The notes under the pieces are model-generated. The model made no database searches. It was not told where the DNA came from and saw only the letters and a program-made list of their open reading frames with translations. Below, piece by piece: positions 1,844-13,155 of a DNA stretch of 13,648 bases. The position numbers and the translations under genes are program-made. How positions within the stretch are numbered: position 1 is the first letter of the stretch; every line of letters begins with the position of its first letter. This DNA is from a virus. The stretch lies in the UHGV virus genome UHGV-0343520. The stretch is one strand, 5' to 3'.

Positions 1844-2334
1844 ACGTCAGGAAAGCAGGGGAGAATGCTGCTAGTTGGGCAACTGGTCTTTCTGCTTGCT
1901 TAAGTGGAGAATTCGCATATTGGCGTGTAACTTGCGCAGAATACACATCTTTTACACGACTTGTTAGTTTATCCTGCGGCTTGTTATGATTATTTTAGCA
2001 TATTATCAGTTTTCACGGCCTGAATCTTGGTTAAGGCTCTTTATCCTGTTGTAATGACAGAAATAAATGGTGGATGGAATTCAGGACGGTTTGTTTTAAT
2101 AAAAAATGTAACTCAGGAAATAAGTTAACCTAACTGGAATCACTTTCGGATTATTAAGATTGAAGTGCCTTTTCTTCCTTTTTAGTATCGGTGCCAGTTC
2201 CGGGGAGAGCGGCTTTTATTGTTTGATTAGAGCTGACACGAAGAACTAATGTAGATCTGGTTTAGTCGGTATGGCTCATGATTTGAAATCTAATCAGTAG
2301 TTTATTTGTTCGAGCGCGATAGTTGGTACCATAT

Positions 2335-2380
<46 letters not shown>

Positions 2381-2723
2381 CGTGGATGAGGCTCTGGTTT
2401 TGCAGCACTGGCGTTTTTTCGTGGGGAAAGGTCTCCTGAGCTCCTTTATCGCTACCCCAAATTATAACAGAGACCAGTTATAGTTTCGGTGCTGTGTTTT
2501 TTTTACAATATTGTGATAACACATTGCTGGCGGGAGTTTTGATATTCCTTGGCAGGGGATGATGATGCGTTATCCTGATGTCGTCAACTCATATAAAATG
2601 AGATGAGAGATCATCGCCGGGTGGTTTGTAATTCGCTGTTTAGCGGGACAATATGTTGTCTGATACAAGACACCCGACGCCTCAGATTACTATAATAAAG
2701 ACGAAGCATCCTTTGTATTGACC

Positions 2724-2749: not shown

Positions 2750-3272
2750 GGGCTGGTTTATTGTATGCCAAATGATTATTAAAAAGGTTGTGTTAATAAC
2801 AAAATCCGAAATAATATGCCTGCATATTTTTATCTTGCTTATATTGTGCATAGCAGGCTCATCCCTGCAATCAAAACTGTATGATGAGTATTTTTTGTTT
2901 TCCTTTTTTCCAGTCATCTGATGATGACCTGCTTCTTTTTAATCCGGATCGACATCAGTTTTTTAAGATAATTCCTGCGAGTTATATGCACAAATGCCAC
3001 AAACTCCGCATTTTATGTGGTTGGGAGTTGCCGGGCGCGCAGTGAGTTTGCTAAGAAAACTCCTGCATGGTGAATCCCCCTGTGCGGTGGGGTGATACCA
3101 TTAACCTTTTCTGTCGCCGACAGGTATCACGAACATTTTGTTCACCGGGAGGCACCCGGCACCATGCACTTCAATAGATTCTCTCCACATTATGGATATT
3201 CTTTCAGAATATCCCACGCAGACTTTGTGTAAATGTTAACAAATGTGCGTTTTATTTGATCTGATTCGCTGT

Positions 3273-3331: not shown

Positions 3332-3760
3332 ATGGGTTTTCGTAGCGCATCAATTCTTACGTTGATTATTAGTGGGATTATTATCGGGTGCACTGATGCT
3401 GTATCGACAAATTATCATGACCGTACATCATATTACTCCGATAAAGCAATAGAGACACAGTATGTGAGTTCATCTGAACGTACTTCTGATGTTAGTGAGG
3501 ATATCCGTCTGTATGCCCATCAAATCAAGAGCGCCATCGAAAAACAGTTCGGGGATGCGAGTAAGTATTCAGGAAAAGAGTGTACACTGAGAATGCATAT
3601 GGCCCCGAATGGCCTTCTACTGGAGGTTAAAAGAGAAAGTGGAGACCTCGATTTATGTCGTGAAGCGATGAATGCGATAAAGAATGCTGATATACCTGCC
3701 CCCCCTTCGCCGGAAGTATATAAAGTATTTCAAAATGGGGTGCTGGATTTTAAACCCTGA
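3332..3760 (+). CDS. Lipoprotein with TolA C-terminal (domain III)-like domain
   Basis: 142 aa. N-terminal signal peptide with lipobox IIGC. The C-terminal ~85 aa (YAHQIKSAIEKQF...CTLRMHMAPNGLLLEVK...PPSPEVYKVFQNGVLDFKP) align closely with the recalled C-terminus of E. coli TolA (...YAGQIKSAIESKF...CTLRIKLAPDGMLLDIK...VFKNAPLDFKP). AT-rich with its own promoter. Confidence 0.8.
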   Translation: MGFRSASILTLIISGIIIGCTDAVSTNYHDRTSYYSDKAIETQYVSSSERTSDVSEDIRLYAHQIKSAIEKQFGDASKYSGKECTLRMHMAPNGLLLEVKRESGDLDLCREAMNAIKNADIPAPPSPEVYKVFQNGVLDFKP

Positions 3761-3910: not shown

Positions 3911-4306
3911 GTGGGATTAAAGAAAATCGTTATGTTGACTTTTTGGGTCGGTTTTGTTGCGGGATGCACACCTTTACACCCTTCAGATTGCCACAAAACT
4001 ACTGCTACAGGTAGTTGCAGTTCAGGACGCTGGGATGATCAGGATGAATGGGGGGCGCAAGCGCGGGGAATCAGAGCTGCAATTAATGCCAAACTTGATG
4101 AGCCGCATAACTGGAAAGGGAAAAAATGCAGGTTGCATATGGAATTCTCTCAGGATGGCACGGCGTTAAAAATATCTACCAGTAACGGTGATAAAGCCTA
4201 TTGCGAAGCGATAAAGTCCGCAGCTCATAAAGCCAAATTTCCGGCCTTCAACAATCCGGAAGTCTACAGAGATTTTCAGAAATCTGGCTTTGACATGCGA
4301 GGTTAG
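3911..4306 (+). CDS. Second, divergent lipoprotein with TolA domain III-like C-terminus
   Basis: 131 aa with GTG start after GAGGA. Lipobox VAGC. C-terminal region (IRAAINAKL...KKCRLHMEFSQDGTALKIS...FNNPEVYRDFQKSGFDMRG) follows the same TolA-III pattern as the upstream gene but is more divergent. Confidence 0.75.
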   Translation: MGLKKIVMLTFWVGFVAGCTPLHPSDCHKTTATGSCSSGRWDDQDEWGAQARGIRAAINAKLDEPHNWKGKKCRLHMEFSQDGTALKISTSNGDKAYCEAIKSAAHKAKFPAFNNPEVYRDFQKSGFDMRG

Positions 4307-5731: not shown

Positions 5732-5868
5732 AATCTTAACTACAATATGATTCATTTTGATGATTGTTTCATAAGGAACAGTGAAGTAAGATCTAAGAGG
5801 AGTTAAATTTTATACAGTATAATCATAATATTGCAGCAAGGTGGTTATAATTGAAAGAATATTTAGAT

Positions 5869-7326
5869 ATGAATACATCTCATGTAAGAGTTGTTACTCA
5901 TATGTGTGGGTTCCTGGTTTGGCTCTATAGTCTTTCAATGTTGCCACCAATGGTTGTAGCATTGTTTTATAAAGAAAAAAGCCTGTTCGTTTTCTTTATA
6001 ACTTTCGTTATATTTTTTTGCATTGGTGGCGGAGCGTGGTATACAACTAAGAAATCTGGCATTCAATTACGTACCCGTGATGGGTTTATTATAATTGTAA
6101 TGTTTTGGATTTTGTTTTCTGTTATTAGTGCATTCCCTTTATGGATTGACTCAGAACTTAATTTAACGTTCATTGATGCTCTGTTTGAAGGGGTTTCTGG
6201 AATAACAACAACAGGAGCAACTGTAATTGATGATGTTAGTTCATTACCTCGGGCATATTTGTACTATCGGTCACAGTTAAATTTTATAGGTGGTTTAGGA
6301 GTTATTGTTCTGGCGGTTGCTGTATTGCCATTATTGGGTATTGGTGGTGCAAAGCTTTATCAGTCAGAAATGCCGGGGCCATTTAAGGATGACAAACTCA
6401 CTCCCCGCCTGGCCGATACGTCACGGACACTGTGGATAACTTATTCTTTATTAGGTATTGCTTGTATTGTCTGTTATAGACTTGCAGGAATGCCTTTGTT
6501 TGATGCTATTTGTCACGGGATTTCCACAGTTTCGCTTGGTGGTTTCTCAACTCATAGCGAGAGTATCGGATATTTTAATAACTATTTGGTTGAGCTGGTG
6601 GCTGGTTCTTTTTCCCTGCTATCGGCTTTCAACTTCACTCTTTGGTATATTGTTATTAGCAGGAAAACGATAAAACCTTTAATCAGAGATATTGAACTTC
6701 GTTTCTTTCTGTTAATAGCCTTAGGGGTGATCATTGTTACCTCTTTCCAGGTCTGGCATATAGGTATGTATGACTTGCATGGAAGTTTTATTCATTCGTT
6801 TTTTCTTGCCAGCTCCATGCTCACTGATAATGGTTTAGCTACGCAGGATTATGCAAGTTGGCCCACGCACACGATAGTGTTTTTGCTGTTGTCAAGTTTC
6901 TTTGGGGGATGTATAGGTTCAACTTGTGGTGGAATTAAGTCACTTCGATTTCTTATACTTTTCAAACAAAGCAAACACGAGATAAATCAGCTTTCTCATC
7001 CCAGAGCGTTGTTGAGTGTAAATGTAGGAGGGAAGATAGTTACAGATCGTGTAATGAGGTCTGTATGGAGTTTCTTTTTTCTTTATACTCTCTTCACGGT
7101 GTTTTTTATACTGGTGTTAAATGGTATGGGATATGATTTTCTTACATCATTTGCAACAGTGGCTGCATGTATTAATAATATGGGATTAGGTTTTGGGGCT
7201 ACTGCATCGTCATTCGGAGTGCTTAATGACATTGCAAAATGTTTAATGTGCATAGCTATGATTCTTGGTCGCCTTGAAATTTATCCTGTTATTATATTGT
7301 TTTCAGGTTTTTTTTGGCGCTCCTAA
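5869..7326 (+). CDS. trkG: TrkH/TrkG-family potassium uptake protein (prophage-borne)
   Basis: 485 aa from ATG 5869 (MNTSHVRV...). An in-frame TTG at 5851 with AGGTGG upstream is an alternative start. Multi-pass membrane protein with Gly-rich selectivity-filter-like segments (GITTTGAT, GIGGAK, LGGFSTH, STCGG). Strongly AT-rich relative to its neighbours. trkG is known to sit in the Rac prophage downstream of Rz/Rz1. Confidence 0.9.
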   Translation: MNTSHVRVVTHMCGFLVWLYSLSMLPPMVVALFYKEKSLFVFFITFVIFFCIGGGAWYTTKKSGIQLRTRDGFIIIVMFWILFSVISAFPLWIDSELNLTFIDALFEGVSGITTTGATVIDDVSSLPRAYLYYRSQLNFIGGLGVIVLAVAVLPLLGIGGAKLYQSEMPGPFKDDKLTPRLADTSRTLWITYSLLGIACIVCYRLAGMPLFDAICHGISTVSLGGFSTHSESIGYFNNYLVELVAGSFSLLSAFNFTLWYIVISRKTIKPLIRDIELRFFLLIALGVIIVTSFQVWHIGMYDLHGSFIHSFFLASSMLTDNGLATQDYASWPTHTIVFLLLSSFFGGCIGSTCGGIKSLRFLILFKQSKHEINQLSHPRALLSVNVGGKIVTDRVMRSVWSFFFLYTLFTVFFILVLNGMGYDFLTSFATVAACINNMGLGFGATASSFGVLNDIAKCLMCIAMILGRLEIYPVIILFSGFFWRS

Positions 7327-7412: not shown

Positions 7413-7447
7413 CCCCAGTAGCACTGGCTGCTGGGGTGCGTTTTATT
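7413..7447 (+). terminator. Candidate intrinsic terminator downstream of trkG
   Basis: Stem CCCCAGTAGC (7413-7422), loop ACTG, stem GCTGCTGGGG (7427-7436) with one G-U pair, followed by TGCGTTTTATT. Confidence 0.5.
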
Positions 7448-7463: not shown

Positions 7464-9179
7464 ATGAGCGAGAAATTAAAGATAGTCTATCGCCCATTAC
7501 AAGAATTGTCACCGTATGCGCACAACGCCAGGACGCACAGTACTGAGCAGGTGGCACAACTGGTAGAAAGTATTAAGCAATTCGGCTGGACTAATCCGGT
7601 GCTGATTGACGAAAAGGGCGAAATTATTGCGGGTCACGGTCGTGTTATGGCGGCTGAAATGCTCAAAATGGATTCTGTTCCGGTCATTGTTCTGTCTGGC
7701 CTGACGGATGAGCAGAAAAAGGCGTACCGCCTGGCAGATAATCGCCTGCCGATGAATGCTGGCTGGGATGAAGATCTGTTGCGGATGGAGCTGTCGGACC
7801 TAATCAATGCTGATTTTGATGTCTCCCTGACAGGCTTCATCCCGACAGAAATTGATGAACTGTTGACGGATGTTTTGCCCGGTACAGGAAATGAGGAGGA
7901 GCCGTATACGACGAAAATTGATACGCCTGTTTATGAGCCGTCGGGCGGTAAACCGGATATCAGTGAACTGTACGACGATACGAAAACTCAGGAGCTGATC
8001 AGCCGGATACGTTCGGCGTCCCTTGAGCCTGATATTGAGAAATTCCTCCTGTGTGCGGCAGAACGTCACACGGTGTTTAATTTCAGCAGAATTGCGGACT
8101 ATTACGCTCACGCCCCCGCTGAAATTCAGTGTTTTTTCGAGGAGTCGGCGCTGGTGATCATTGATTATCAGCAGGCTATTGAAAATGGATTTGTCCGGAT
8201 GACGCAGCGCATGGTGGAGATCATGCATGGTGGTGAGGAGGAGAATATGCGTGATGATTTTTGCGCCTTTATTCTGACTCACGGGCGACCGGACAAAGTT
8301 CTGACTTACCGGACGTTGCGTCGTGCTGGCTATACCGGGAAAATTTTTATCGTTGTTGATGATGAAGATAAGACACGGCATCAGTACATGGCTGAATTTG
8401 GTGAACAGGTGCTGGTGTTTTCCAAAGCCGATATCGCCAGTCGTTTTGACGAAGCCGATAATTTCTGTGACCGCCGCTCAATTTTTTACGCCCGTAATGC
8501 CTGTTTCGACCAGGCAAAACTGGTCGGGTGTAAATACTTCATTCAGCTCGATGATGATTATCACGAGTTCCAGTTTCGGGTGGATCGCAACTATGACCAG
8601 GCCTATTTTCCGATAAGGAAACTGGATGCGATCCTTTCTGAAATGCTGGCGTACTACGAATCAATACCTGCTCTTTCCATCGCTATGTCGCAGGGCGGGG
8701 ATTTTCTTGGTGACAATGGCGGCCATGCTTCGTGGGTGAAACGCAAGGCAATGAACAGCTTTATCTGTTCGGTTGATCGACCGTTCTCATTCATGGGGCG
8801 CATTAACGAGGATGTGAATACGTACACGAATCTCGGTCGCTGTGGTGAATTGTTTATGACGATCGGTGCTGTCCAGTTAGGGCAGAAACAGACGCAGAAA
8901 AACAGCGGCGGAATGACCGAGCTGTATCTGGATTCCGGAACCTACGTTAAAAGTTTTTACTCCGTCATGTATGCGCCGTCGTGCGTAAAAATCTCACTGA
9001 TGGGTGCCAGCCATAAACGCATTCACCATCAGGTCACCTGGAACAACGCTGCAGTAAAAATCCTTCACGAAAAATACAGGAAGAAGACACCCTGCATATC
9101 AATGGGGGTGACAAATGATTCCGTATTCGAAAGTCGAGTCTCTGGCAGCGTGCCGGATGACTGCACAACAAATCGCTGA
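7464..9179 (+). CDS. ParB/Srx-like N-terminal domain protein fused to a large uncharacterised C-terminal domain (not a recognisable methyltransferase; DxD-type motifs)
   Basis: 571 aa. The N-terminal ~130 aa (IVYRPLQELSPYAHNARTH...IIAGHGRVMAA...KKAYRLADN) is a typical ParB-like nuclease-domain module as found on phage DNA methyltransferases. The C-terminal ~430 aa has no DPPY/NPPY or FxGxG motifs but has acidic clusters (FIVVDDEDK, IQLDDDYHEF). Position between the lysis cassette and terminase is typical of phage ParB-fusion enzymes. Confidence 0.8.
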   Translation: MSEKLKIVYRPLQELSPYAHNARTHSTEQVAQLVESIKQFGWTNPVLIDEKGEIIAGHGRVMAAEMLKMDSVPVIVLSGLTDEQKKAYRLADNRLPMNAGWDEDLLRMELSDLINADFDVSLTGFIPTEIDELLTDVLPGTGNEEEPYTTKIDTPVYEPSGGKPDISELYDDTKTQELISRIRSASLEPDIEKFLLCAAERHTVFNFSRIADYYAHAPAEIQCFFEESALVIIDYQQAIENGFVRMTQRMVEIMHGGEEENMRDDFCAFILTHGRPDKVLTYRTLRRAGYTGKIFIVVDDEDKTRHQYMAEFGEQVLVFSKADIASRFDEADNFCDRRSIFYARNACFDQAKLVGCKYFIQLDDDYHEFQFRVDRNYDQAYFPIRKLDAILSEMLAYYESIPALSIAMSQGGDFLGDNGGHASWVKRKAMNSFICSVDRPFSFMGRINEDVNTYTNLGRCGELFMTIGAVQLGQKQTQKNSGGMTELYLDSGTYVKSFYSVMYAPSCVKISLMGASHKRIHHQVTWNNAAVKILHEKYRKKTPCISMGVTNDSVFESRVSGSVPDDCTTNR

Positions 9180-9366
9180 CGTTCTGGATGTTGATCTGAA
9201 CCGACTGAAAGAAAATCGGGAAGCAATGACAGATTTTTATGCGGCCATCCGTAAGGGCAGAGCGAAAGGTGAAGCCGAGTTACGAGCGGCATTGTTTAAG
9301 CTTGCCAGAAAAGGGGATGCCTTTGCTCTGCGCGAACTACTCAGGGTGGATAAAAATCAGGACTAA
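9115..9366 (+). CDS. Small hypothetical protein, possibly a helix-turn-helix DNA-binding protein preceding the terminase
   Basis: 83-aa ORF with GGGGGTGA upstream of ATG 9115. An alternative ATG lies at 9157. It overlaps the 3' end of the ParB-fusion ORF by 65 nt and ends 4 nt before the terminase small subunit start. Function not recognised. Confidence 0.45.
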   Translation: MIPYSKVESLAACRMTAQQIADVLDVDLNRLKENREAMTDFYAAIRKGRAKGEAELRAALFKLARKGDAFALRELLRVDKNQD

Positions 9367-9369
9367 CTG

Positions 9370-10464
9370 ATGAGCAGACCGGACTGGGGGGCGTTGCAGC
9401 AGGAGTATATTGCTGAATACACCCGCTCCGGTATATCTCCGGTGGCATGGTGTGAAGCAAGGGGACTGAATTACGCAACAGCCCGTCGTTACATCAAAAA
9501 AACTCCGAAAAATGCGCAGACAGAAATGTGCAAAACTGCGCAAAAAAGTGCGCAGAAAAAATCTGCGCAGACTGCACAAAAGCGGAACGAAAAATCTCAG
9601 GAAAAAAAGCCAGTATTCGATGCGGGCCTGAATGAGGGCGACGCGGAGGAATTTTCGTTCTGTCCCGATGAATTCGGCATTTCTGACCAGCAGGCTAAGT
9701 TTGCGATGCTTGTTGCTCAGGGTAAAAAGCCGACAGAGGCGTACCGACTAGCCGGTTATGAGGGGCAAGGTGCGACAGCTAACAGCAACGCCAGTCGTAT
9801 GCTTAGAAATGCCAGGGTTTTTCGCGCTATCAGCTACTTCCGCAATCAGTACCAGAAACGCTATACCGCAGACCTGGATTTACTAGTGAGTCAGTTGATG
9901 GCTATTGTCCTGGCCGACCCCAATCAGCTTGCACAATTTCGCCGTGTTAACTGCCGTTATTGCTGGGGCGAGAATCATCTCTACCAGTGGCGCGATATAG
10001 CAGAATTCGACAAGGCAGCGGCGCAGGCTTCCAGAGATGGCAAACCCGAACCGGAATATGGAGGCCTCGGCTTTGTTGATAACGCCATACCCAATCCGGA
10101 CTGCCCGAAGTGCTGCGGTGAGGGAACGGGACAGCTTTATATGGCTGATACCACTCTGCTTGATGGGGATGCGCGGCAATTATATGCAGGGGCAAAATTC
10201 GGAAAATTCGGCGTTGAGATCCTGCTGGAGGATAAGGCTGCCGCCCGGCGTGAATTGTTGCGTTTGTTTTCTGCTGGCGGGGCTTTATGTGCAGATAAAC
10301 GGCTACAGGAACTGGAAATTGAACGGCGCAGAATGGAAAACCAGAAGCTGCGCAAAGAGATCGAAACGGTGGAAGATAATGAACATCCCCAGCCTGTGGC
10401 GATCAATATTAATGTGGTTGATGCCAGAGTAAGGAGTGATGAAGATGATCTCTCCGACGCTTAA
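9370..10464 (+). CDS. Terminase small subunit (Terminase_2/P27-like core with N-terminal extension and C-terminal Cys-rich region)
   Basis: 364 aa. Central region (ISDQQAKFAMLVAQGKKPTEAYRLAGY...SRMLRNARV) is typical of P27-family small terminases. It lies immediately upstream of, and overlapping, the large subunit. Has an N-terminal HTH-like segment, a Lys/Gln-rich low-complexity repeat, and CxxC...CxxCC cysteines. Confidence 0.8.
   Translation: MSRPDWGALQQEYIAEYTRSGISPVAWCEARGLNYATARRYIKKTPKNAQTEMCKTAQKSAQKKSAQTAQKRNEKSQEKKPVFDAGLNEGDAEEFSFCPDEFGISDQQAKFAMLVAQGKKPTEAYRLAGYEGQGATANSNASRMLRNARVFRAISYFRNQYQKRYTADLDLLVSQLMAIVLADPNQLAQFRRVNCRYCWGENHLYQWRDIAEFDKAAAQASRDGKPEPEYGGLGFVDNAIPNPDCPKCCGEGTGQLYMADTTLLDGDARQLYAGAKFGKFGVEILLEDKAAARRELLRLFSAGGALCADKRLQELEIERRRMENQKLRKEIETVEDNEHPQPVAININVVDARVRSDEDDLSDA
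9513..9578 (+). repeat. Cluster of short direct repeats TGCGCA(G/A)A within the terminase small subunit gene
   Basis: TGCGCA occurs at 9513, 9537, 9549 and 9564, with variants TGTGCA (9527) and TGCACA (9573), all within ~65 bp. They encode the AQK-rich low-complexity peptide. Confidence 0.6.
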
Positions 10465-11746
10465 TGTGCCTCAGGCGCGATTTCTTTCAATGCCCCATAA
10501 ATTTAAAGCCTATATTGCTGGTTTTGGCTCGGGCAAAACATGGGTTGGGTGTGGCGGCATATGCAAGGGGATTTGGGAGCATCCAGGTATAAATCAGGGA
10601 TATTTTGCGCCAACGTATCCCCAAATTCGCGATATTTTTTACCCTACAGTGGAAGAAGTTGCTGCTGACTGGGGATTGAACGTAAAAATTAATGAGGGAA
10701 ATAAAGAGGTTCACTTTTATTACGGACGCCAGTATCGGGGAACCACTATCTGCAGATCGATGGAGAAGCCACAAACGATCGTCGGTTTCAAAATTGGTAA
10801 TGCGTTGGTGGATGAACTGGACATTTTGCCGAAGGAAAAAGCCAGAACGGCGTGGCGCAAGATAATTGCACGTATGCGTTATAAGATTGATGGACTTCGC
10901 AACGGTATTGACGTTACAACCACGCCGGAAGGATTCAAATTTGTCTACGAGCAGTTTGTTAAAGCCGTGCGTGAAAAAACAGAGCTGGCCTCACTGTATG
11001 GTCTGGTGCAGGCATCTACTTTCGATAATGAAAAGAACCTGCCAGCAGATTACATTCCTTCGCTTCTTGAATCATACCCTCCAGAGCTGATTAAAGCCTA
11101 TCTTCGAGGACAGTTTACTAACCTGACAAGTGGTACTGTTTACCATCAGTTTGACCGGAAACTGAATAATTGCGAAGAAGTGGAGCAGCCAGGGGAGCCG
11201 ATTTATATTGGGATGGATTTTAACGTTGGAAAGATGGCGGGAATCGTCCATGTGCTGCGTTTGGGGCTTCCATGTGCGGTAACTGAAATCATCAATGCCT
11301 ACGATACGCCGGATATGATCCGCATCATTAAAGAACGCTTCTGGCTGTATGATGGGAATGATTACCGGAAAGTGAGGGAAATTTATATTTATCCAGATGC
11401 TTCCGGGGATTCCAGAAAATCAAGTAACGCAAGTACGACGGATATAGCCCAGCTTAAGCAGGCTGGTTTTAACGTTGTGGTGAACAGCTCGAACCCGCCA
11501 GTAAAAGATCGCGTTAACTCAATGAATGCAATGTTCTGCAATGCCAATGGTGAGCGTCGCTATAAAGTTAATGTGAAGCGTTGCCCGTTATATGCCGAAT
11601 CTCTGGAGCAACAGGTCTGGGATGAGAAGGGGGAGCCTGATAAAAAATCTGGCAATGATCACCCGAATGATGCCGGAGGTTATTTCATCGTTAAGCAATT
11701 CCCTATTGTCAAACCGACCGGAAGAGTCACATCACTTCGGATTTAA
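10445..11746 (+). CDS. Terminase large subunit (ATPase/nuclease)
   Basis: Walker A motif AGFGSGKT near the N-terminus and acidic nuclease-domain motifs in the C-terminal half (YIGMDFNVG, YPDASGDS, NDHPNDAGG). ATG 10445 is 8 nt after AAGGAG (10431-10436). The ORF is open from GTG 10436. Overlaps the small subunit stop. Confidence 0.9.
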   Translation: MISPTLNVPQARFLSMPHKFKAYIAGFGSGKTWVGCGGICKGIWEHPGINQGYFAPTYPQIRDIFYPTVEEVAADWGLNVKINEGNKEVHFYYGRQYRGTTICRSMEKPQTIVGFKIGNALVDELDILPKEKARTAWRKIIARMRYKIDGLRNGIDVTTTPEGFKFVYEQFVKAVREKTELASLYGLVQASTFDNEKNLPADYIPSLLESYPPELIKAYLRGQFTNLTSGTVYHQFDRKLNNCEEVEQPGEPIYIGMDFNVGKMAGIVHVLRLGLPCAVTEIINAYDTPDMIRIIKERFWLYDGNDYRKVREIYIYPDASGDSRKSSNASTTDIAQLKQAGFNVVVNSSNPPVKDRVNSMNAMFCNANGERRYKVNVKRCPLYAESLEQQVWDEKGEPDKKSGNDHPNDAGGYFIVKQFPIVKPTGRVTSLRI

Positions 11747-11748
11747 TT

Positions 11749-13155
11749 ATGGCTGATATATCAACACCCAACCTCGACTATAACGATATGCTGGAGGCGT
11801 GGGATATTAACGACGCACTGATGGGCGGTACGCTTGAAATGCGCAGGCAGGGGGAAAATTATCTCCCAAAATGGCCTAACGAAGATGAAGACGCTTATAA
11901 AAAACGCCTGTCTGTGGCTACGCTACTTCCTGTGTATGAAGAAAGCATCAAGCAAAATATTGGGCGCATATTTGCAGAGCCGACAGTATTGAGTGAGGAA
12001 ACGCCGGCAAAAATCAGGGAATATGCAGAAAATATCGACATGGAGGGGAGCCGACTGGATGTGTGGGCGCAGCAATTTTTCAGCCTCGCATTTCAGTATG
12101 GTGTGGCACATGCGCTGGTGGACTATCCACGAACGGATATGAAAGAGATTCGGACAAAAGCCGATGAAAACGCGACCGGTGGTCGTCCGTACGTTACGAT
12201 GCTGAATCCACGCCAGGTTATTGGATGGAAATCGAAAGTTGAAAAAGGGAAAGTTGTTCTCACTGATTTGCGTATAAAAGAGGTCATCATTATTGATGGT
12301 GATGATTTCGGGCAGAAGAAGGTGGAGCAGATCCGCCATATTATGCCCCGTCGAGTTGAAATTTATCGACGTAGCGAAGGCACTAATGGCGAATCTGTCT
12401 GGACGCTTCATGAGTCATGGAATACCAGCCGTGATGATATTCCTCTGGTAACACTGTACACGAAGAAAACAGGATTTATGCGTGGTACACCGCCATTGCT
12501 TAATCTTGGCTTGCTGAATATCAAGCACTGGCAAAGCCAGAGCGAGCAGGACAATATTCTTCATGTTGCCCGCGTTCCATTGCTGGTGGCCTACGGGCTG
12601 GACAGGAATGAAGAACTGACGGTTGGTGCATCCACCGCTACGATTTTTGAGGACAGAACAAAAAATGGCCTCGAATATGTTGAACATAGTGGCGCAGCGA
12701 TAGAATCTGGCGAAACATCACTTGAGAAGCTGGAAAATCAGATGCGTCATGCCGGCGCTAAACTTCTGCGTGCTGAAAATACATCCACCAAATCTGTTGA
12801 TCAGACTAATGAAGAGCGAATGCAGGAAAACTCGCCGCTTTATACAATGGCGAACTCCCTCGAAGATGCCCTCGATAATATTCTCCAGATAATGGCGGAA
12901 TGGATCGGAGAGAGTTGCGGTGGCAATGTGGATGTGCGCACTGAACTGGATGTATCTGCCCAGGTGTTTGACTCATCCTCCGCGCTGGCTGTTCAGTCAT
13001 TGCGTCAGGGCGGTGATATACGTCAGATTGATGCGGTTCGGGTGTTGCAGGCGTTGAAATTTATCGATCAGGATTCCCGTCCAGAGGAAGTGATCGATGA
13101 ATTAAAAAATCAGAGTGTAATGCTGATGGAAATCAATGATGCAAACCGTGAATGA
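11749..13155 (+). CDS. Portal protein
   Basis: 468-aa ORF immediately after the large terminase and before a head-morphogenesis-like gene. Size and acidic C-terminus are consistent with a portal. Family not confirmed by search. Confidence 0.75.
   Translation: MADISTPNLDYNDMLEAWDINDALMGGTLEMRRQGENYLPKWPNEDEDAYKKRLSVATLLPVYEESIKQNIGRIFAEPTVLSEETPAKIREYAENIDMEGSRLDVWAQQFFSLAFQYGVAHALVDYPRTDMKEIRTKADENATGGRPYVTMLNPRQVIGWKSKVEKGKVVLTDLRIKEVIIIDGDDFGQKKVEQIRHIMPRRVEIYRRSEGTNGESVWTLHESWNTSRDDIPLVTLYTKKTGFMRGTPPLLNLGLLNIKHWQSQSEQDNILHVARVPLLVAYGLDRNEELTVGASTATIFEDRTKNGLEYVEHSGAAIESGETSLEKLENQMRHAGAKLLRAENTSTKSVDQTNEERMQENSPLYTMANSLEDALDNILQIMAEWIGESCGGNVDVRTELDVSAQVFDSSSALAVQSLRQGGDIRQIDAVRVLQALKFIDQDSRPEEVIDELKNQSVMLMEINDANRE

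What the first reader, a model, noticed from the sequence alone, without database searches (positions are those of the whole stretch)
7464..9179. ParB-domain protein carrying a non-methylase C-terminal domain: candidate DNA-modifying or anti-restriction enzyme
The N-terminal ~130 aa is the ParB/Srx-like module that in many phages is fused to an N6/N4 DNA methyltransferase next to the terminase genes. Here the ~430-aa C-terminal part lacks the methyltransferase motifs (no DPPY/NPPY, no FxGxG). Instead it shows acidic DxD-like clusters (VVDDEDK, QLDDDYHEF) flanked by predicted beta-strand-like hydrophobic runs, which is compatible with a nucleotide-sugar or nucleotide transferase-like fold. This suggests domain swapping on a DNA-targeting scaffold, with possible DNA glycosylation, nucleotidylation or another protective modification.
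Basis: partly seen in the sequence, partly recalled or inferred. Interest (0 to 1): 0.7.

Follow-up and report, generated by a model that had tools for sequence, protein, structure and literature searches.

The report
ParB-partnered phage glycosyltransferase, accidentally fused
The 571-aa "ParB plus unknown domain" protein is two overlapping late genes of an E. coli Rac-type prophage, a ParB-like helper and a TAGT-family sugar transferase, joined here by the loss of one base; the gene pair is widespread in phages and its target is still unknown.

Summary

The single ORF is not the natural architecture. The window lacks one G at position 8242. Relatives there have a 263-aa ParB-partner gene that overlaps a 310-aa TAGT gene by 8 nt (ATGCGTGA). 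None of 956 complete E. coli genomes carrying this junction has the fused form. IMG/VR has 0 fused junctions against 12 wild-type ones. None of 85 TAGT genes in related viral and metagenomic loci is fused. The only other occurrence is a 506-nt metagenome scaffold.

The two-gene pair is conserved in 38 viral lineages, including phages of Lactobacillus and a haloarchaeal virus. It always lies upstream of terminase genes, and no hydroxymethyl-pyrimidine pathway is visible.

Most likely the pair is a DNA glycosyltransferase activated by a ParB-fold partner, like DpdB/DpdA and ParB176/5mYOX176. The acceptor is unknown.

The parts
7464..8243 (+). ParB-fold partner gene (aa 1-260 of the fused ORF). 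In relatives it is a 263-aa stand-alone protein ending ...EEEEYA*.
   Evidence: P0122 is 100% identical, 263 aa, and represents 1812 member sequences.
7464..7868 (+). ParB/Srx NTP-binding N-domain, with the GxxR P-motif GHGR at 7632-7643.
   Evidence: Pfam, PHROG and PADLOC hits. AF2 model plus Foldseek matches to ParB-CDP, Noc, KorB and PadC at E ~1e-6. The Arg is kept in 32 of 35 lineages that have this domain.
7905..8213 (+). Conserved C-terminal domain of the partner (aa 148-250; R201, H202, E226, SALVIID234, E240). It has no Pfam or NCBIfam model.
   Evidence: It is the most conserved part across 38 lineages. It persists alone, coupled to TAGT, in L057 and L064. No family hit. The AF2 model is low-confidence and helical.
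8232..8254 (+). Junction. One G is missing between 8241 and 8242 relative to all relatives. Contains a GGAGG Shine-Dalgarno and the TAGT start ATG at 8247. The partner's stop (TGA at 8252-8254) is now out of frame.
8247..9179 (+). TAGT-family GT-A glycosyltransferase gene (310 aa). Motifs: R14 (THGR), DDED at 8358-8369, DDD at 8550-8558, NED at 8805-8813.
   Evidence: The exact 310-aa product is on at least 1000 public contigs.
9157..9366 (+). Small 69-aa ORF that overlaps the TAGT 3' end by 23 nt. Annotated as hypothetical in enterobacterial relatives. Function unknown.
   Evidence: No Pfam hit.
9370..13155 (+). Packaging genes directly downstream: small terminase (9370-10464), large terminase (10436-11746) and portal (11749-13155).
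7413..7436 (+). Terminator-like hairpin (10-bp stem, 7 GC pairs) after the trkG moron and just upstream of the partner gene.

Best explanation
Shown: the region holds two translationally coupled late genes of a Rac-type lambdoid prophage. The first encodes a ParB/Srx-fold partner (263 aa in relatives). It has an NTP-binding N-domain, a disordered linker and a strongly conserved, unclassified C-terminal domain. The second encodes a 310-aa GT-A glycosyltransferase of the TAGT family. In this window a single-base deletion just upstream of the second gene's ATG puts both in one frame and gives a 571-aa ORF that keeps every conserved residue of both halves.

Inferred mechanism: the TAGT enzyme binds a nucleotide-sugar through its DxxD and DDD-metal site and transfers the sugar to a hydroxyl acceptor, most probably on phage DNA. 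The partner docks through its C-domain and uses its ParB-type nucleotide switch to give the enzyme productive access to double-stranded DNA. This would happen late in infection, just before the adjacent terminase packages the genome, and would protect the DNA from host nucleases. The acceptor group is not known. The fused protein may still work, and free TAGT may still be made from the internal SD and ATG.
For: Two genes, not one:
- Alignment to relatives and public annotations.
- 0 of 956 E. coli genomes carry the fused junction.
- IMG/VR has 0 fused junctions and 12 wild-type ones.
- No ORF hits both profiles among 85 TAGT genes. 82 of the 85 junctions overlap by 1-20 nt, mostly 11 or 8 nt.
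- Each of the best 150 hits among 1.84 billion representatives matches only one half, except one junction-spanning fragment.

GT-A/TAGT assignment.

Obligate partnership: the partner sits at position -1 in 38 of 38 lineages, and nothing else is conserved around the pair. Partners are 37% identical over about 250 aa in distant phages. The pair is also found in Lactobacillus phage phi jlb1 and in haloarchaeal HHTV-2.

DNA as target:
- The same ParB N-module is fused to DNA methyltransferases in phages (PMC12704722).
- Characterised TAGT/GT-A phage enzymes glycosylate 5hmC or glucosyl-5hmC in DNA (PMC13216743; bioRxiv 10.1101/2023.12.21.572611).
- Stand-alone ParB-fold proteins are required by DNA-modifying enzymes: DpdB for DpdA (PMC10164549) and ParB176 for 5mYOX176 on dsDNA (PMC13229309).
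- The pair lies upstream of terminases of four unrelated TerL families.
- It sits in the late operon, after the moron terminator.
Against: - No hydroxymethyl-pyrimidine source is visible. The complete Rac prophage, phi jlb1 and HHTV-2 show no TET/5mYOX, no thymidylate-synthase-like enzyme and no phage DNA polymerase in their annotations. A Pfam scan of Rac's unannotated ORFs found none either. Neither family is among the 25 most frequent Pfam families listed for flanking genes of 38 lineages (only the top 25 of 44 and 66 families are shown).
- No enzyme is known that glycosylates canonical DNA.
- TAGT relatives can act on proteins (GREB1, PMC7968844). The closest solved folds are glycan and protein GTs.
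- The GxxR arginine is lost in 3 lineages and the whole ParB N-domain in 2, so NTP switching is not universally needed.
- The partner's C-domain model is low-confidence, and no complex was modelled.
- No experiment was done.
Confidence: 0.5

Rival explanations
1. The glycosyltransferase acts on something other than DNA. Candidates are a phage or host protein (O-glycosylation as by GREB1) or an envelope glycopolymer (as by the prophage enzyme TarP). The ParB-fold partner would then be a regulator or adaptor unrelated to DNA modification.
Against: The pair keeps a strict partnership with a ParB-type module that phages otherwise fuse to DNA methyltransferases. Its position is late-operon and next to the terminase, not a lysogenic-conversion moron site. 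It occurs in Gram-negative, Gram-positive, actinobacterial and haloarchaeal viruses, whose envelopes and proteins share little. All phage TAGT/GT-A enzymes characterised so far act on DNA.
Confidence: 0.25
2. The pair serves DNA packaging rather than bulk protection. It would mark a few specific sites (a pac region or DNA ends) or modify terminase or portal components, with the ParB module giving site specificity.
For: The pair lies upstream of the terminase genes across four unrelated TerL families. ParB proteins classically load at specific sites. The ParB-dependent dioxygenase shows sequence preference and low-level modification (PMC13229309).
Against: No HTH or other DNA-binding domain was found in the partner. 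In HHTV-2 the pair lies about 3 kb from TerL, with eight small genes between. Phage DNA methylases and other accessory genes also commonly sit at this position. Nothing links it directly to packaging.
Confidence: 0.1
3. One reading: the 571-aa ORF is a genuine, evolved bifunctional protein in which a methyltransferase domain was swapped for a new catalytic domain on a ParB scaffold.
For: The ORF is open in the window. The same fused junction occurs on one 506-nt metagenome scaffold. ParB-methyltransferase fusions do exist in phages (PMC12704722).
Against: 0 of 956 E. coli genomes, 0 IMG/VR contigs and 0 of 85 related TAGT genes are fused. The fusion point is exactly the stop/start overlap with its Shine-Dalgarno. 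The other apparent fusions in databases are decayed or deletion chimeras (P0016, P0075). The scaffold with the same junction carries further deletions.
Confidence: 0.03
4. The missing G is a sequencing or assembly error, and the organism really has the normal two genes.
For: The difference is a single base in a GGAGGAGGAGG repeat. The allele is unique among complete genomes. The full-length product is absent from 15 billion proteins.
Against: The window is otherwise clean: 99.75% identity to E. coli E7 over 10.9 kb, with only one other indel, a 9-nt repeat deletion. The run is not a long homopolymer. An identical junction appears in another public dataset.
Confidence: 0.4

Closest known systems
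T2/T6 beta-glucosyl-HMC-alpha-glucosyltransferase, founding phage member of Pfam PF20691 (TAGT)
   Same: Same Pfam family and PHROG 842 annotation. GT-A fold with DDD motif (PMC13216743).
   Different: Very distant in sequence: T-even-type relatives are at most 24% identical. The T2/T6 enzyme adds a second glucose to glucosyl-5hmC made by a dedicated hmC pathway and an alpha-GT. Neither is present here, and no ParB partner is described for it.
Metavirome GT-A DNA glycosyltransferases of C5-MT/5mYOX (TET) clusters (Pyle et al., bioRxiv 10.1101/2023.12.21.572611; Cell Rep 2024)
   Same: GT-A fold and the R...DDD...ED active-site pattern (R14, D102-104, E188-D189 here). Phage-encoded. That study noted ParB-like genes and terminases among the neighbours.
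   Different: Those enzymes sit next to a cytosine methyltransferase and a dioxygenase that supply 5hmC. Here no such genes are found. [quoted passage not shown]
ParB176 / 5mYOX176, a ParB-dependent phage thymine dioxygenase (PMC13229309)
   Same: A stand-alone phage ParB-fold protein with an NTP-binding domain, a linker and a C-terminal domain, and no obvious DNA-binding domain. It is encoded beside a DNA-modifying enzyme and needed for activity on dsDNA.
   Different: The partner enzyme is a dioxygenase, not a glycosyltransferase. The C-terminal domain here is a distinct, highly conserved module that can occur without the ParB domain. Dependence has not been tested here.
DpdB / DpdA of the Dpd 7-deazaguanine system (PMC10164549)
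   Same: A ParB-fold NTPase encoded as a separate protein and required for a transferase to modify dsDNA.
   Different: DpdB belongs to the DGQQR/DUF262-like branch and works with a transglycosylase in a bacterial restriction-modification system. There is no sequence relationship beyond the fold.
Phage ParB-N6/N4 DNA methyltransferase fusions (phrog_498; PADLOC MTase_II; PMC12704722)
   Same: The closest sequence relatives of the N-domain (E 4e-50 and 2e-38). They occupy a similar position near the terminase.
   Different: Those are true single-chain fusions with methylase motifs. Here there are no methylase motifs and the catalytic partner is a separate gene.
E. coli K-12 ynaK (b1365), cryptic Rac prophage
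   Same: Same locus after trkG. ynaK is the 87-aa 5' remnant of this partner gene.
   Different: In K-12 the rest of the partner, the TAGT gene and the head genes are deleted. The window represents the intact Rac-type state, apart from the 1-nt deletion.

Membership tests
TAGT, Pfam PF20691 (TET-associated glycosyltransferase) | Match to the family profile above the curated cut-off | tested here: met
   118 bits against a 27.5 cut-off, aa 269-483, E 7e-34. phrog_842 E 3e-103. The best BFVD structural matches are TAGT-domain proteins, E 3e-27.
TAGT, Pfam PF20691 (TET-associated glycosyltransferase) | GT-A fold with the R...DDD...ED catalytic pattern | tested here: met
TAGT, Pfam PF20691 (TET-associated glycosyltransferase) | Genomic association with a TET/JBP dioxygenase or another source of 5-hydroxymethyl-pyrimidine | tested here: not met
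   None is annotated in the complete Rac prophage, phi jlb1 or HHTV-2, and Rac's unannotated ORFs have no such Pfam hit. Neither family is among the 25 most frequent Pfam families listed for neighbours in 38 lineages. Solitary TAGTs are known to be common: 288 of 753 phage genomes (PMC13216743).
TAGT, Pfam PF20691 (TET-associated glycosyltransferase) | Transfer of a sugar to modified DNA | not testable with these tools
   Needs nucleoside LC-MS or an in vitro assay.
ParB/Srx superfamily (PF02195, ParB-CTPase fold) | Profile match and fold of the N-terminal NTP-binding domain, with the GxxR P-motif | tested here: met
   Pfam 27.6 bits against 26.3. phrog_620 E 1e-89. Foldseek matches to ParB-CDP 6sdk, Noc and KorB at E ~2e-6. 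GHGR at aa 57-60; G57, G59 and R60 invariant among close homologues.
Canonical partition ParB (TIGR00180) | HTH DNA-binding domain, C-terminal dimerisation domain and a ParA partner | tested here: not met
   TIGR00180 scores 38 bits against a 58.45 cut-off and matches the N-domain only. No HTH family was found. No parA is annotated in the Rac prophage. It should not be filed as a partition protein.
Phage ParB-DNA methyltransferase fusion proteins | N6/N4 methyltransferase domain with (D/N/S)PP(Y/F/W) and FxGxG motifs in the same chain | tested here: not met
   No such motifs. No N6_N4_Mtase Pfam hit. Only the N-module matches.
ParB-fold-partner-dependent DNA-modifying enzyme pairs (DpdB/DpdA; ParB176/5mYOX176) | Separate ParB-fold gene strictly co-inherited with the catalytic gene | tested here: met
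   The partner is at position -1 in 38 of 38 lineages. 82 of 85 junctions overlap.
ParB-fold-partner-dependent DNA-modifying enzyme pairs (DpdB/DpdA; ParB176/5mYOX176) | Catalytic activity on dsDNA requires the partner | not testable with these tools
   Requires co-expression or reconstitution.
Natural single-chain ParB-TAGT fusion (the architecture claimed by the finding) | Both domains in one ORF in independent relatives | tested here: not met
   0 of 956 E. coli genomes. 0 of 85 TAGT genes in related loci. No hit covers more than 65% of the query among 5.8 billion clusters. Each of the best 150 hits among 1.84 billion representatives matches one half only, except one fragment with the same deletion.

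The most novel reading that the evidence does not exclude
The ParB-partner/TAGT pair is a self-sufficient two-component system that puts a sugar directly onto DNA that carries no hydroxymethyl-pyrimidine. The acceptor could be a canonical base, the backbone or the DNA ends. The partner's unclassified C-terminal domain would either create or expose the acceptor, or act as a new GT-activating module. This would be a previously unseen DNA modification made by common temperate phages, including Rac-type prophages present in about a sixth of complete E. coli genomes and relatives in Lactobacillus and haloarchaeal viruses.
Probability: 0.2. Interest if true: 0.85.

Novelty: new variant of a known kind. 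Interest (0 to 1): 0.4.

Why it matters
The fusion itself is a private frameshift and has no general significance. What matters is the underlying two-gene module. It is abundant: at least 586 relatives in IMG/VR, and 889 of 5426 complete E. coli genomes carry the full-length region. It is conserved from enterobacterial prophages to a haloarchaeal virus and always moves as a unit. It combines two things that were each recently shown to act on DNA, TAGT-type glycosyltransferases and ParB-fold activators. Yet it sits in small temperate genomes with no visible way to make the hydroxymethyl bases that all known DNA glycosyltransferases need.

Finding the acceptor would either reveal a new DNA modification chemistry or show that 'TET-associated' glycosyltransferases have a non-DNA role in phages. 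The system is directly testable in E. coli. The accidental fusion is a ready-made single-chain construct for asking whether the two proteins work as a complex.

Tried and rejected
- I tried to model the fused chain with a joint alignment of homologues of both halves, hoping for an interface. MAFFT misaligned the half-length sequences (TAGT homologues 12-15% identical to the query), so I modelled the halves separately. No complex model was obtained.
- The partner's C-domain gave only a low-confidence AF2 model. Fold matches for that domain would be meaningless and were not interpreted.
- Profile scans of the C-domain (Pfam at E up to 10, NCBIfam) found nothing.
- Sequence search of both halves against PDB found ParB N-domains only and no TAGT structure.
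- The AFDB Foldseek library was unavailable, so similarity to trypanosome JGT or GREB1 models was not tested.
- The founding TAGT paper (Iyer et al. 2013, PMC3763556) is not held. Its content is cited only through later papers.
- Literature searches for TAGT with ParB and for ynaK found no functional study of this pair.
- I considered a canonical partition ParB and rejected it: no HTH, no ParA, below the TIGR00180 cut-off.
- I considered a defence-system component and rejected it: the only PADLOC hit is to the ParB module of MTase_II.
- I considered programmed frameshifting to make a fusion in wild-type phages. There is no evidence for it and I did not pursue it.
- Database proteins that looked like fusions (P0016, P0075) turned out to be decayed or deletion chimeras. 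TAGTs with long N-terminal extensions have no ParB domain.
Full report
**Observation**

Window 7464-9179 (+) is an ATG-initiated ORF of 571 codons.
- a ParB/Srx N-terminus (Pfam ParB_N aa 23-90, 27.6 bits against a 26.3 cut-off; phrog_620 E 1e-89);
- GHGR at aa 57-60;
- no (D/N/S)PP(Y/F/W) or FxGxG methylase motifs;
- the acidic clusters VVDDEDK (aa 297) and QLDDDYHEF (aa 361).

**What the C-terminal part is**

Residues 262-571 match Pfam PF20691, 'TET-associated glycosyltransferase' (TAGT), at 118 bits against a 27.5 cut-off. They also match phrog_842, annotated 'beta-glucosyl-HMC-alpha-glucosyltransferase', at E 3e-103.

In the homologue alignment, R14, D38, D41, D102-D103-D104-Y105 and D189 (TAGT numbering) are invariant. 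The fold guess was correct, but the domain is an already curated family. NCBI names the E. coli protein 'GREB1-related protein'.

**One gene or two**

Megablast finds the region in 1580 of 5426 complete E. coli genomes, and 889 of them cover at least 80% of it. In nearly all of these the match spans 1717 bases against 1716 in the window, and it is annotated as two genes.

Alignment locates the difference. Relatives read GGTGAGGAGGAGGAATATGCGTGA, while the window reads GGTGAGGAGGAGAATATGCGTGA, with one G fewer at 8242. In the relatives:
- a 263-aa ParB/Srx protein ends at the TGA;
- the 310-aa TAGT protein starts at the ATG 8 nt upstream of that stop;
- a GGAGG Shine-Dalgarno lies just before the ATG.

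Losing the G puts both genes in one frame (...MHGGEEE-N-MRDDF...).

The fused form is essentially private to this window:
- A 60-nt query across the junction hits 956 complete E. coli genomes, none at 99% identity or above. The best matches are 60/61.
- The fused junction has no exact match in IMG/VR, whereas the wild-type junction has 12.
- The exact 571-aa product is absent from a ~15-billion-protein collection, while the exact 310-aa TAGT is on at least 1000 contigs.
- No database protein covers more than 65% of the fused query.
- In an exhaustive search of 1.84 billion representatives, each of the best 150 hits matches one half only. The single exception is P0263.

P0263 comes from a 506-nt metagenome scaffold (L105). 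It has exactly the same fused junction, together with a 90-nt internal deletion and another indel.

Apparent fusions P0016 and P0075 are decayed or deletion chimeras. TAGTs with long N-terminal extensions contain no ParB domain.

The window is otherwise clean. It is 99.75% identical to E. coli E7 over 10.9 kb, with only one other indel, a 9-nt repeat deletion at 2840. I therefore cannot tell a real private mutation from an isolated error, and I lean slightly towards a real allele.

**The natural unit is a conserved two-gene module**

Every one of the 85 TAGT ORFs in them has a homologue of the ParB partner directly upstream on the same strand, and no ORF hits both profiles.

The two genes overlap in 82 of 85 cases: 11 nt in 44, 8 nt in 29 and 14 nt in 6.

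After collapsing to 38 lineages (TAGT below 85% identical), the partner (38/38, position -1) and TAGT are the only gene families shared. Everything else varies.

- Downstream lie large terminases of four unrelated Pfam families (Terminase_6N 15, Terminase_3 11, GpA 4, TerL_ATPase 4), plus small terminases and portals.
- Upstream lie ordinary replication and recombination genes.

The pair also occurs, with an 11-nt overlap, in Lactobacillus gasseri phage phi jlb1 and in the haloarchaeal virus HHTV-2. Homologues at 40-47% identity occur in Nocardia, Vibrio and L. delbrueckii phages. T-even-type TAGTs are at most 24% identical.

**The partner protein**

Its N-domain (aa 1-135) is modelled confidently and matches CTP-bound ParB, Noc, KorB and PadC (E ~2e-6). 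GxxR is intact (GHGR).

It is not a partition ParB. It scores below the TIGR00180 cut-off, has no HTH domain, and there is no parA in the prophage.

After a disordered linker comes a C-terminal domain (aa 148-250) that is the most conserved part of the protein. R201, H202, E226, S228-ALVIID234, E240 and G242 are each conserved in at least 90% of 38 lineages. This domain has no Pfam or NCBIfam model.

The GxxR arginine is lost in 3 lineages. In two lineages (L057 and L064; L057 has a tandem duplication of the unit) the partner consists of the C-domain alone, still coupled to TAGT. So the C-domain looks like the obligatory TAGT partner, and the ParB module looks like a usual but dispensable addition.

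**Context in the window**

The element is an intact Rac-type lambdoid prophage (integrase, recET, racR ... at ttcA in E. coli E7). The window holds, in order:
- Q antiterminator;
- two TolA-C-like ORFs;
- holin, lysozyme and Rz;
- the low-GC trkG moron with a strong terminator-like hairpin (7413-7436);
- the ParB partner, TAGT and a 69-aa ORF;
- TerS, TerL and portal.

The pair is therefore part of the late transcript that runs into the packaging genes. In E. coli K-12 only an 87-aa remnant survives, ynaK.

**Mechanism**

Shown: the GT-A/TAGT identity with intact catalytic motifs, the ParB-fold NTP-binding module, the strict co-inheritance and translational coupling, and the late, terminase-proximal position.

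Inferred: the enzyme glycosylates phage DNA and needs the partner for access to dsDNA. The inference rests on three lines:
- Characterised phage TAGT/GT-A enzymes act on 5hmC or glucosyl-5hmC in DNA (PMC13216743; bioRxiv 10.1101/2023.12.21.572611).
- The same ParB module is fused to DNA methyltransferases (PMC12704722).
- There are two experimental precedents for separate ParB-fold proteins required by DNA-modifying enzymes: DpdB for DpdA (PMC10164549) and ParB176 for the thymine dioxygenase 5mYOX176 on dsDNA (PMC13229309).

The main difficulty is the acceptor. The complete Rac prophage, phi jlb1 and HHTV-2 show no TET/5mYOX, no thymidylate-synthase-like hydroxymethylase and no phage polymerase. 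Neither family is among the most frequent neighbour families listed for the 38 lineages.

I put about 0.45-0.5 on DNA glycosylation, 0.25 on a non-DNA acceptor (a protein as for GREB1, PMC7968844, or an envelope glycan as for TarP) and 0.1 on a site-specific packaging-linked role.

The fused protein keeps all conserved residues and loses only the partner's last three residues, in a variable acidic tail. It may still be active. The internal SD and ATG could still yield free TAGT, but free partner would no longer be made.

**Comparison and novelty**

The catalytic half is a member of TAGT by profile, fold and motifs. It fails the family's name-giving context, association with TET or a hydroxymethyl-pyrimidine source. 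Such 'solitary' TAGTs are known to be frequent (288 of 753 phage genomes) and uncharacterised (PMC13216743). ParB-like genes have been noted among GT neighbours (bioRxiv 10.1101/2023.12.21.572611). A survey of ParB-fold fusions lists methyltransferases but no TAGT (PMC12704722).

I found no functional study of this pair. I therefore rate it a new variant of a known kind: a ParB-fold-partnered solitary TAGT with a distinct, unclassified partner domain.

**Verdict**

- Observation: partly confirmed.
- Interpretation: partly supported. The fold and motifs are right. The fusion, the 'domain swap' and the novelty of the domain are wrong.
- Interest: 0.4. The fusion is trivial, but the module underneath poses a clear, testable open question about what these glycosyltransferases modify in phages that lack hydroxymethylated bases.

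Noticed in passing
window 3035-3221 (+): Rfam match to the gammaproteobacterial sRNA STnc100 (86.6 bits, gathering score 47). It lies in the ORF-poor, low-GC stretch between the Q antiterminator and the TolA-like ORFs.
   Followed up: no
window 3332-3760 and 3911-4306 (+): Two tandem ORFs that encode TolA C-terminal domains (Pfam TolA E 2e-23 and 1e-14; both phrog_5772), in the moron position between Q and the lysis cassette. In E. coli E7 one copy is annotated as a pseudogene. They could be decoys or exclusion factors against TolA-dependent colicins or filamentous phages.
   Followed up: no
window 5851-7326 (+) and 7413-7436: TrkG potassium-transporter moron with low GC (~0.39), placed between the lysis genes and the ParB partner and followed by a strong terminator-like hairpin. 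This matches the known trkG of Rac.
   Followed up: partly
window 1897-2456 and 2840: About 560 bases of the window have no counterpart in the E. coli E7 Rac prophage. The window also lacks 9 nt at 2840, inside a direct repeat (ATATTCTGC/ATATTGTGC).
   Followed up: no
window 9157-9366 (+): A 69-aa ORF overlaps the TAGT 3' end by 23 nt and ends 4 nt before TerS. Enterobacterial relatives annotate it as hypothetical, and it has no Pfam hit. It may belong to the module or to packaging.
   Followed up: partly
L057 7015-9525; L064 3871-5203: The partner is reduced to its conserved C-terminal domain (134-153 aa, no ParB module) and is still overlap-coupled to TAGT. In L057 the [C-domain][TAGT] unit is tandemly duplicated.
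   Followed up: partly
proteins P0260, P0049, P0313, P0291, P0007, P0295, P0083, P0076: Natural single-chain fusions of TAGT with SAM-methyltransferase, sulfotransferase, a second TAGT, a P-loop NTPase-like N-terminus, radical SAM and GT1 domains. This suggests the transferred sugar is further tailored or extended in some lineages.
   Followed up: partly
L004 6769-8398: LicD-family transferase, Methyltransf_23 and cytidylyltransferase genes lie immediately upstream of the ParB-partner/TAGT pair in one metagenomic phage. This hints at a phospho-alcohol decoration of the glycan.
   Followed up: no
L105 (ENA ERZ28634112, scaffold_138593, 506 nt): Carries exactly the same fused junction as the window (GGTGAGGAGGAGAATATGCGTGA), plus a 90-nt internal deletion and another indel. 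This is the only other sighting of the allele.
   Followed up: yes
protein cluster: The 90%-identity cluster that holds the 310-aa TAGT also lists 263-aa ParB-partner proteins as members. This implies that bridging (fused or read-through) sequences exist somewhere in that collection.
   Followed up: no
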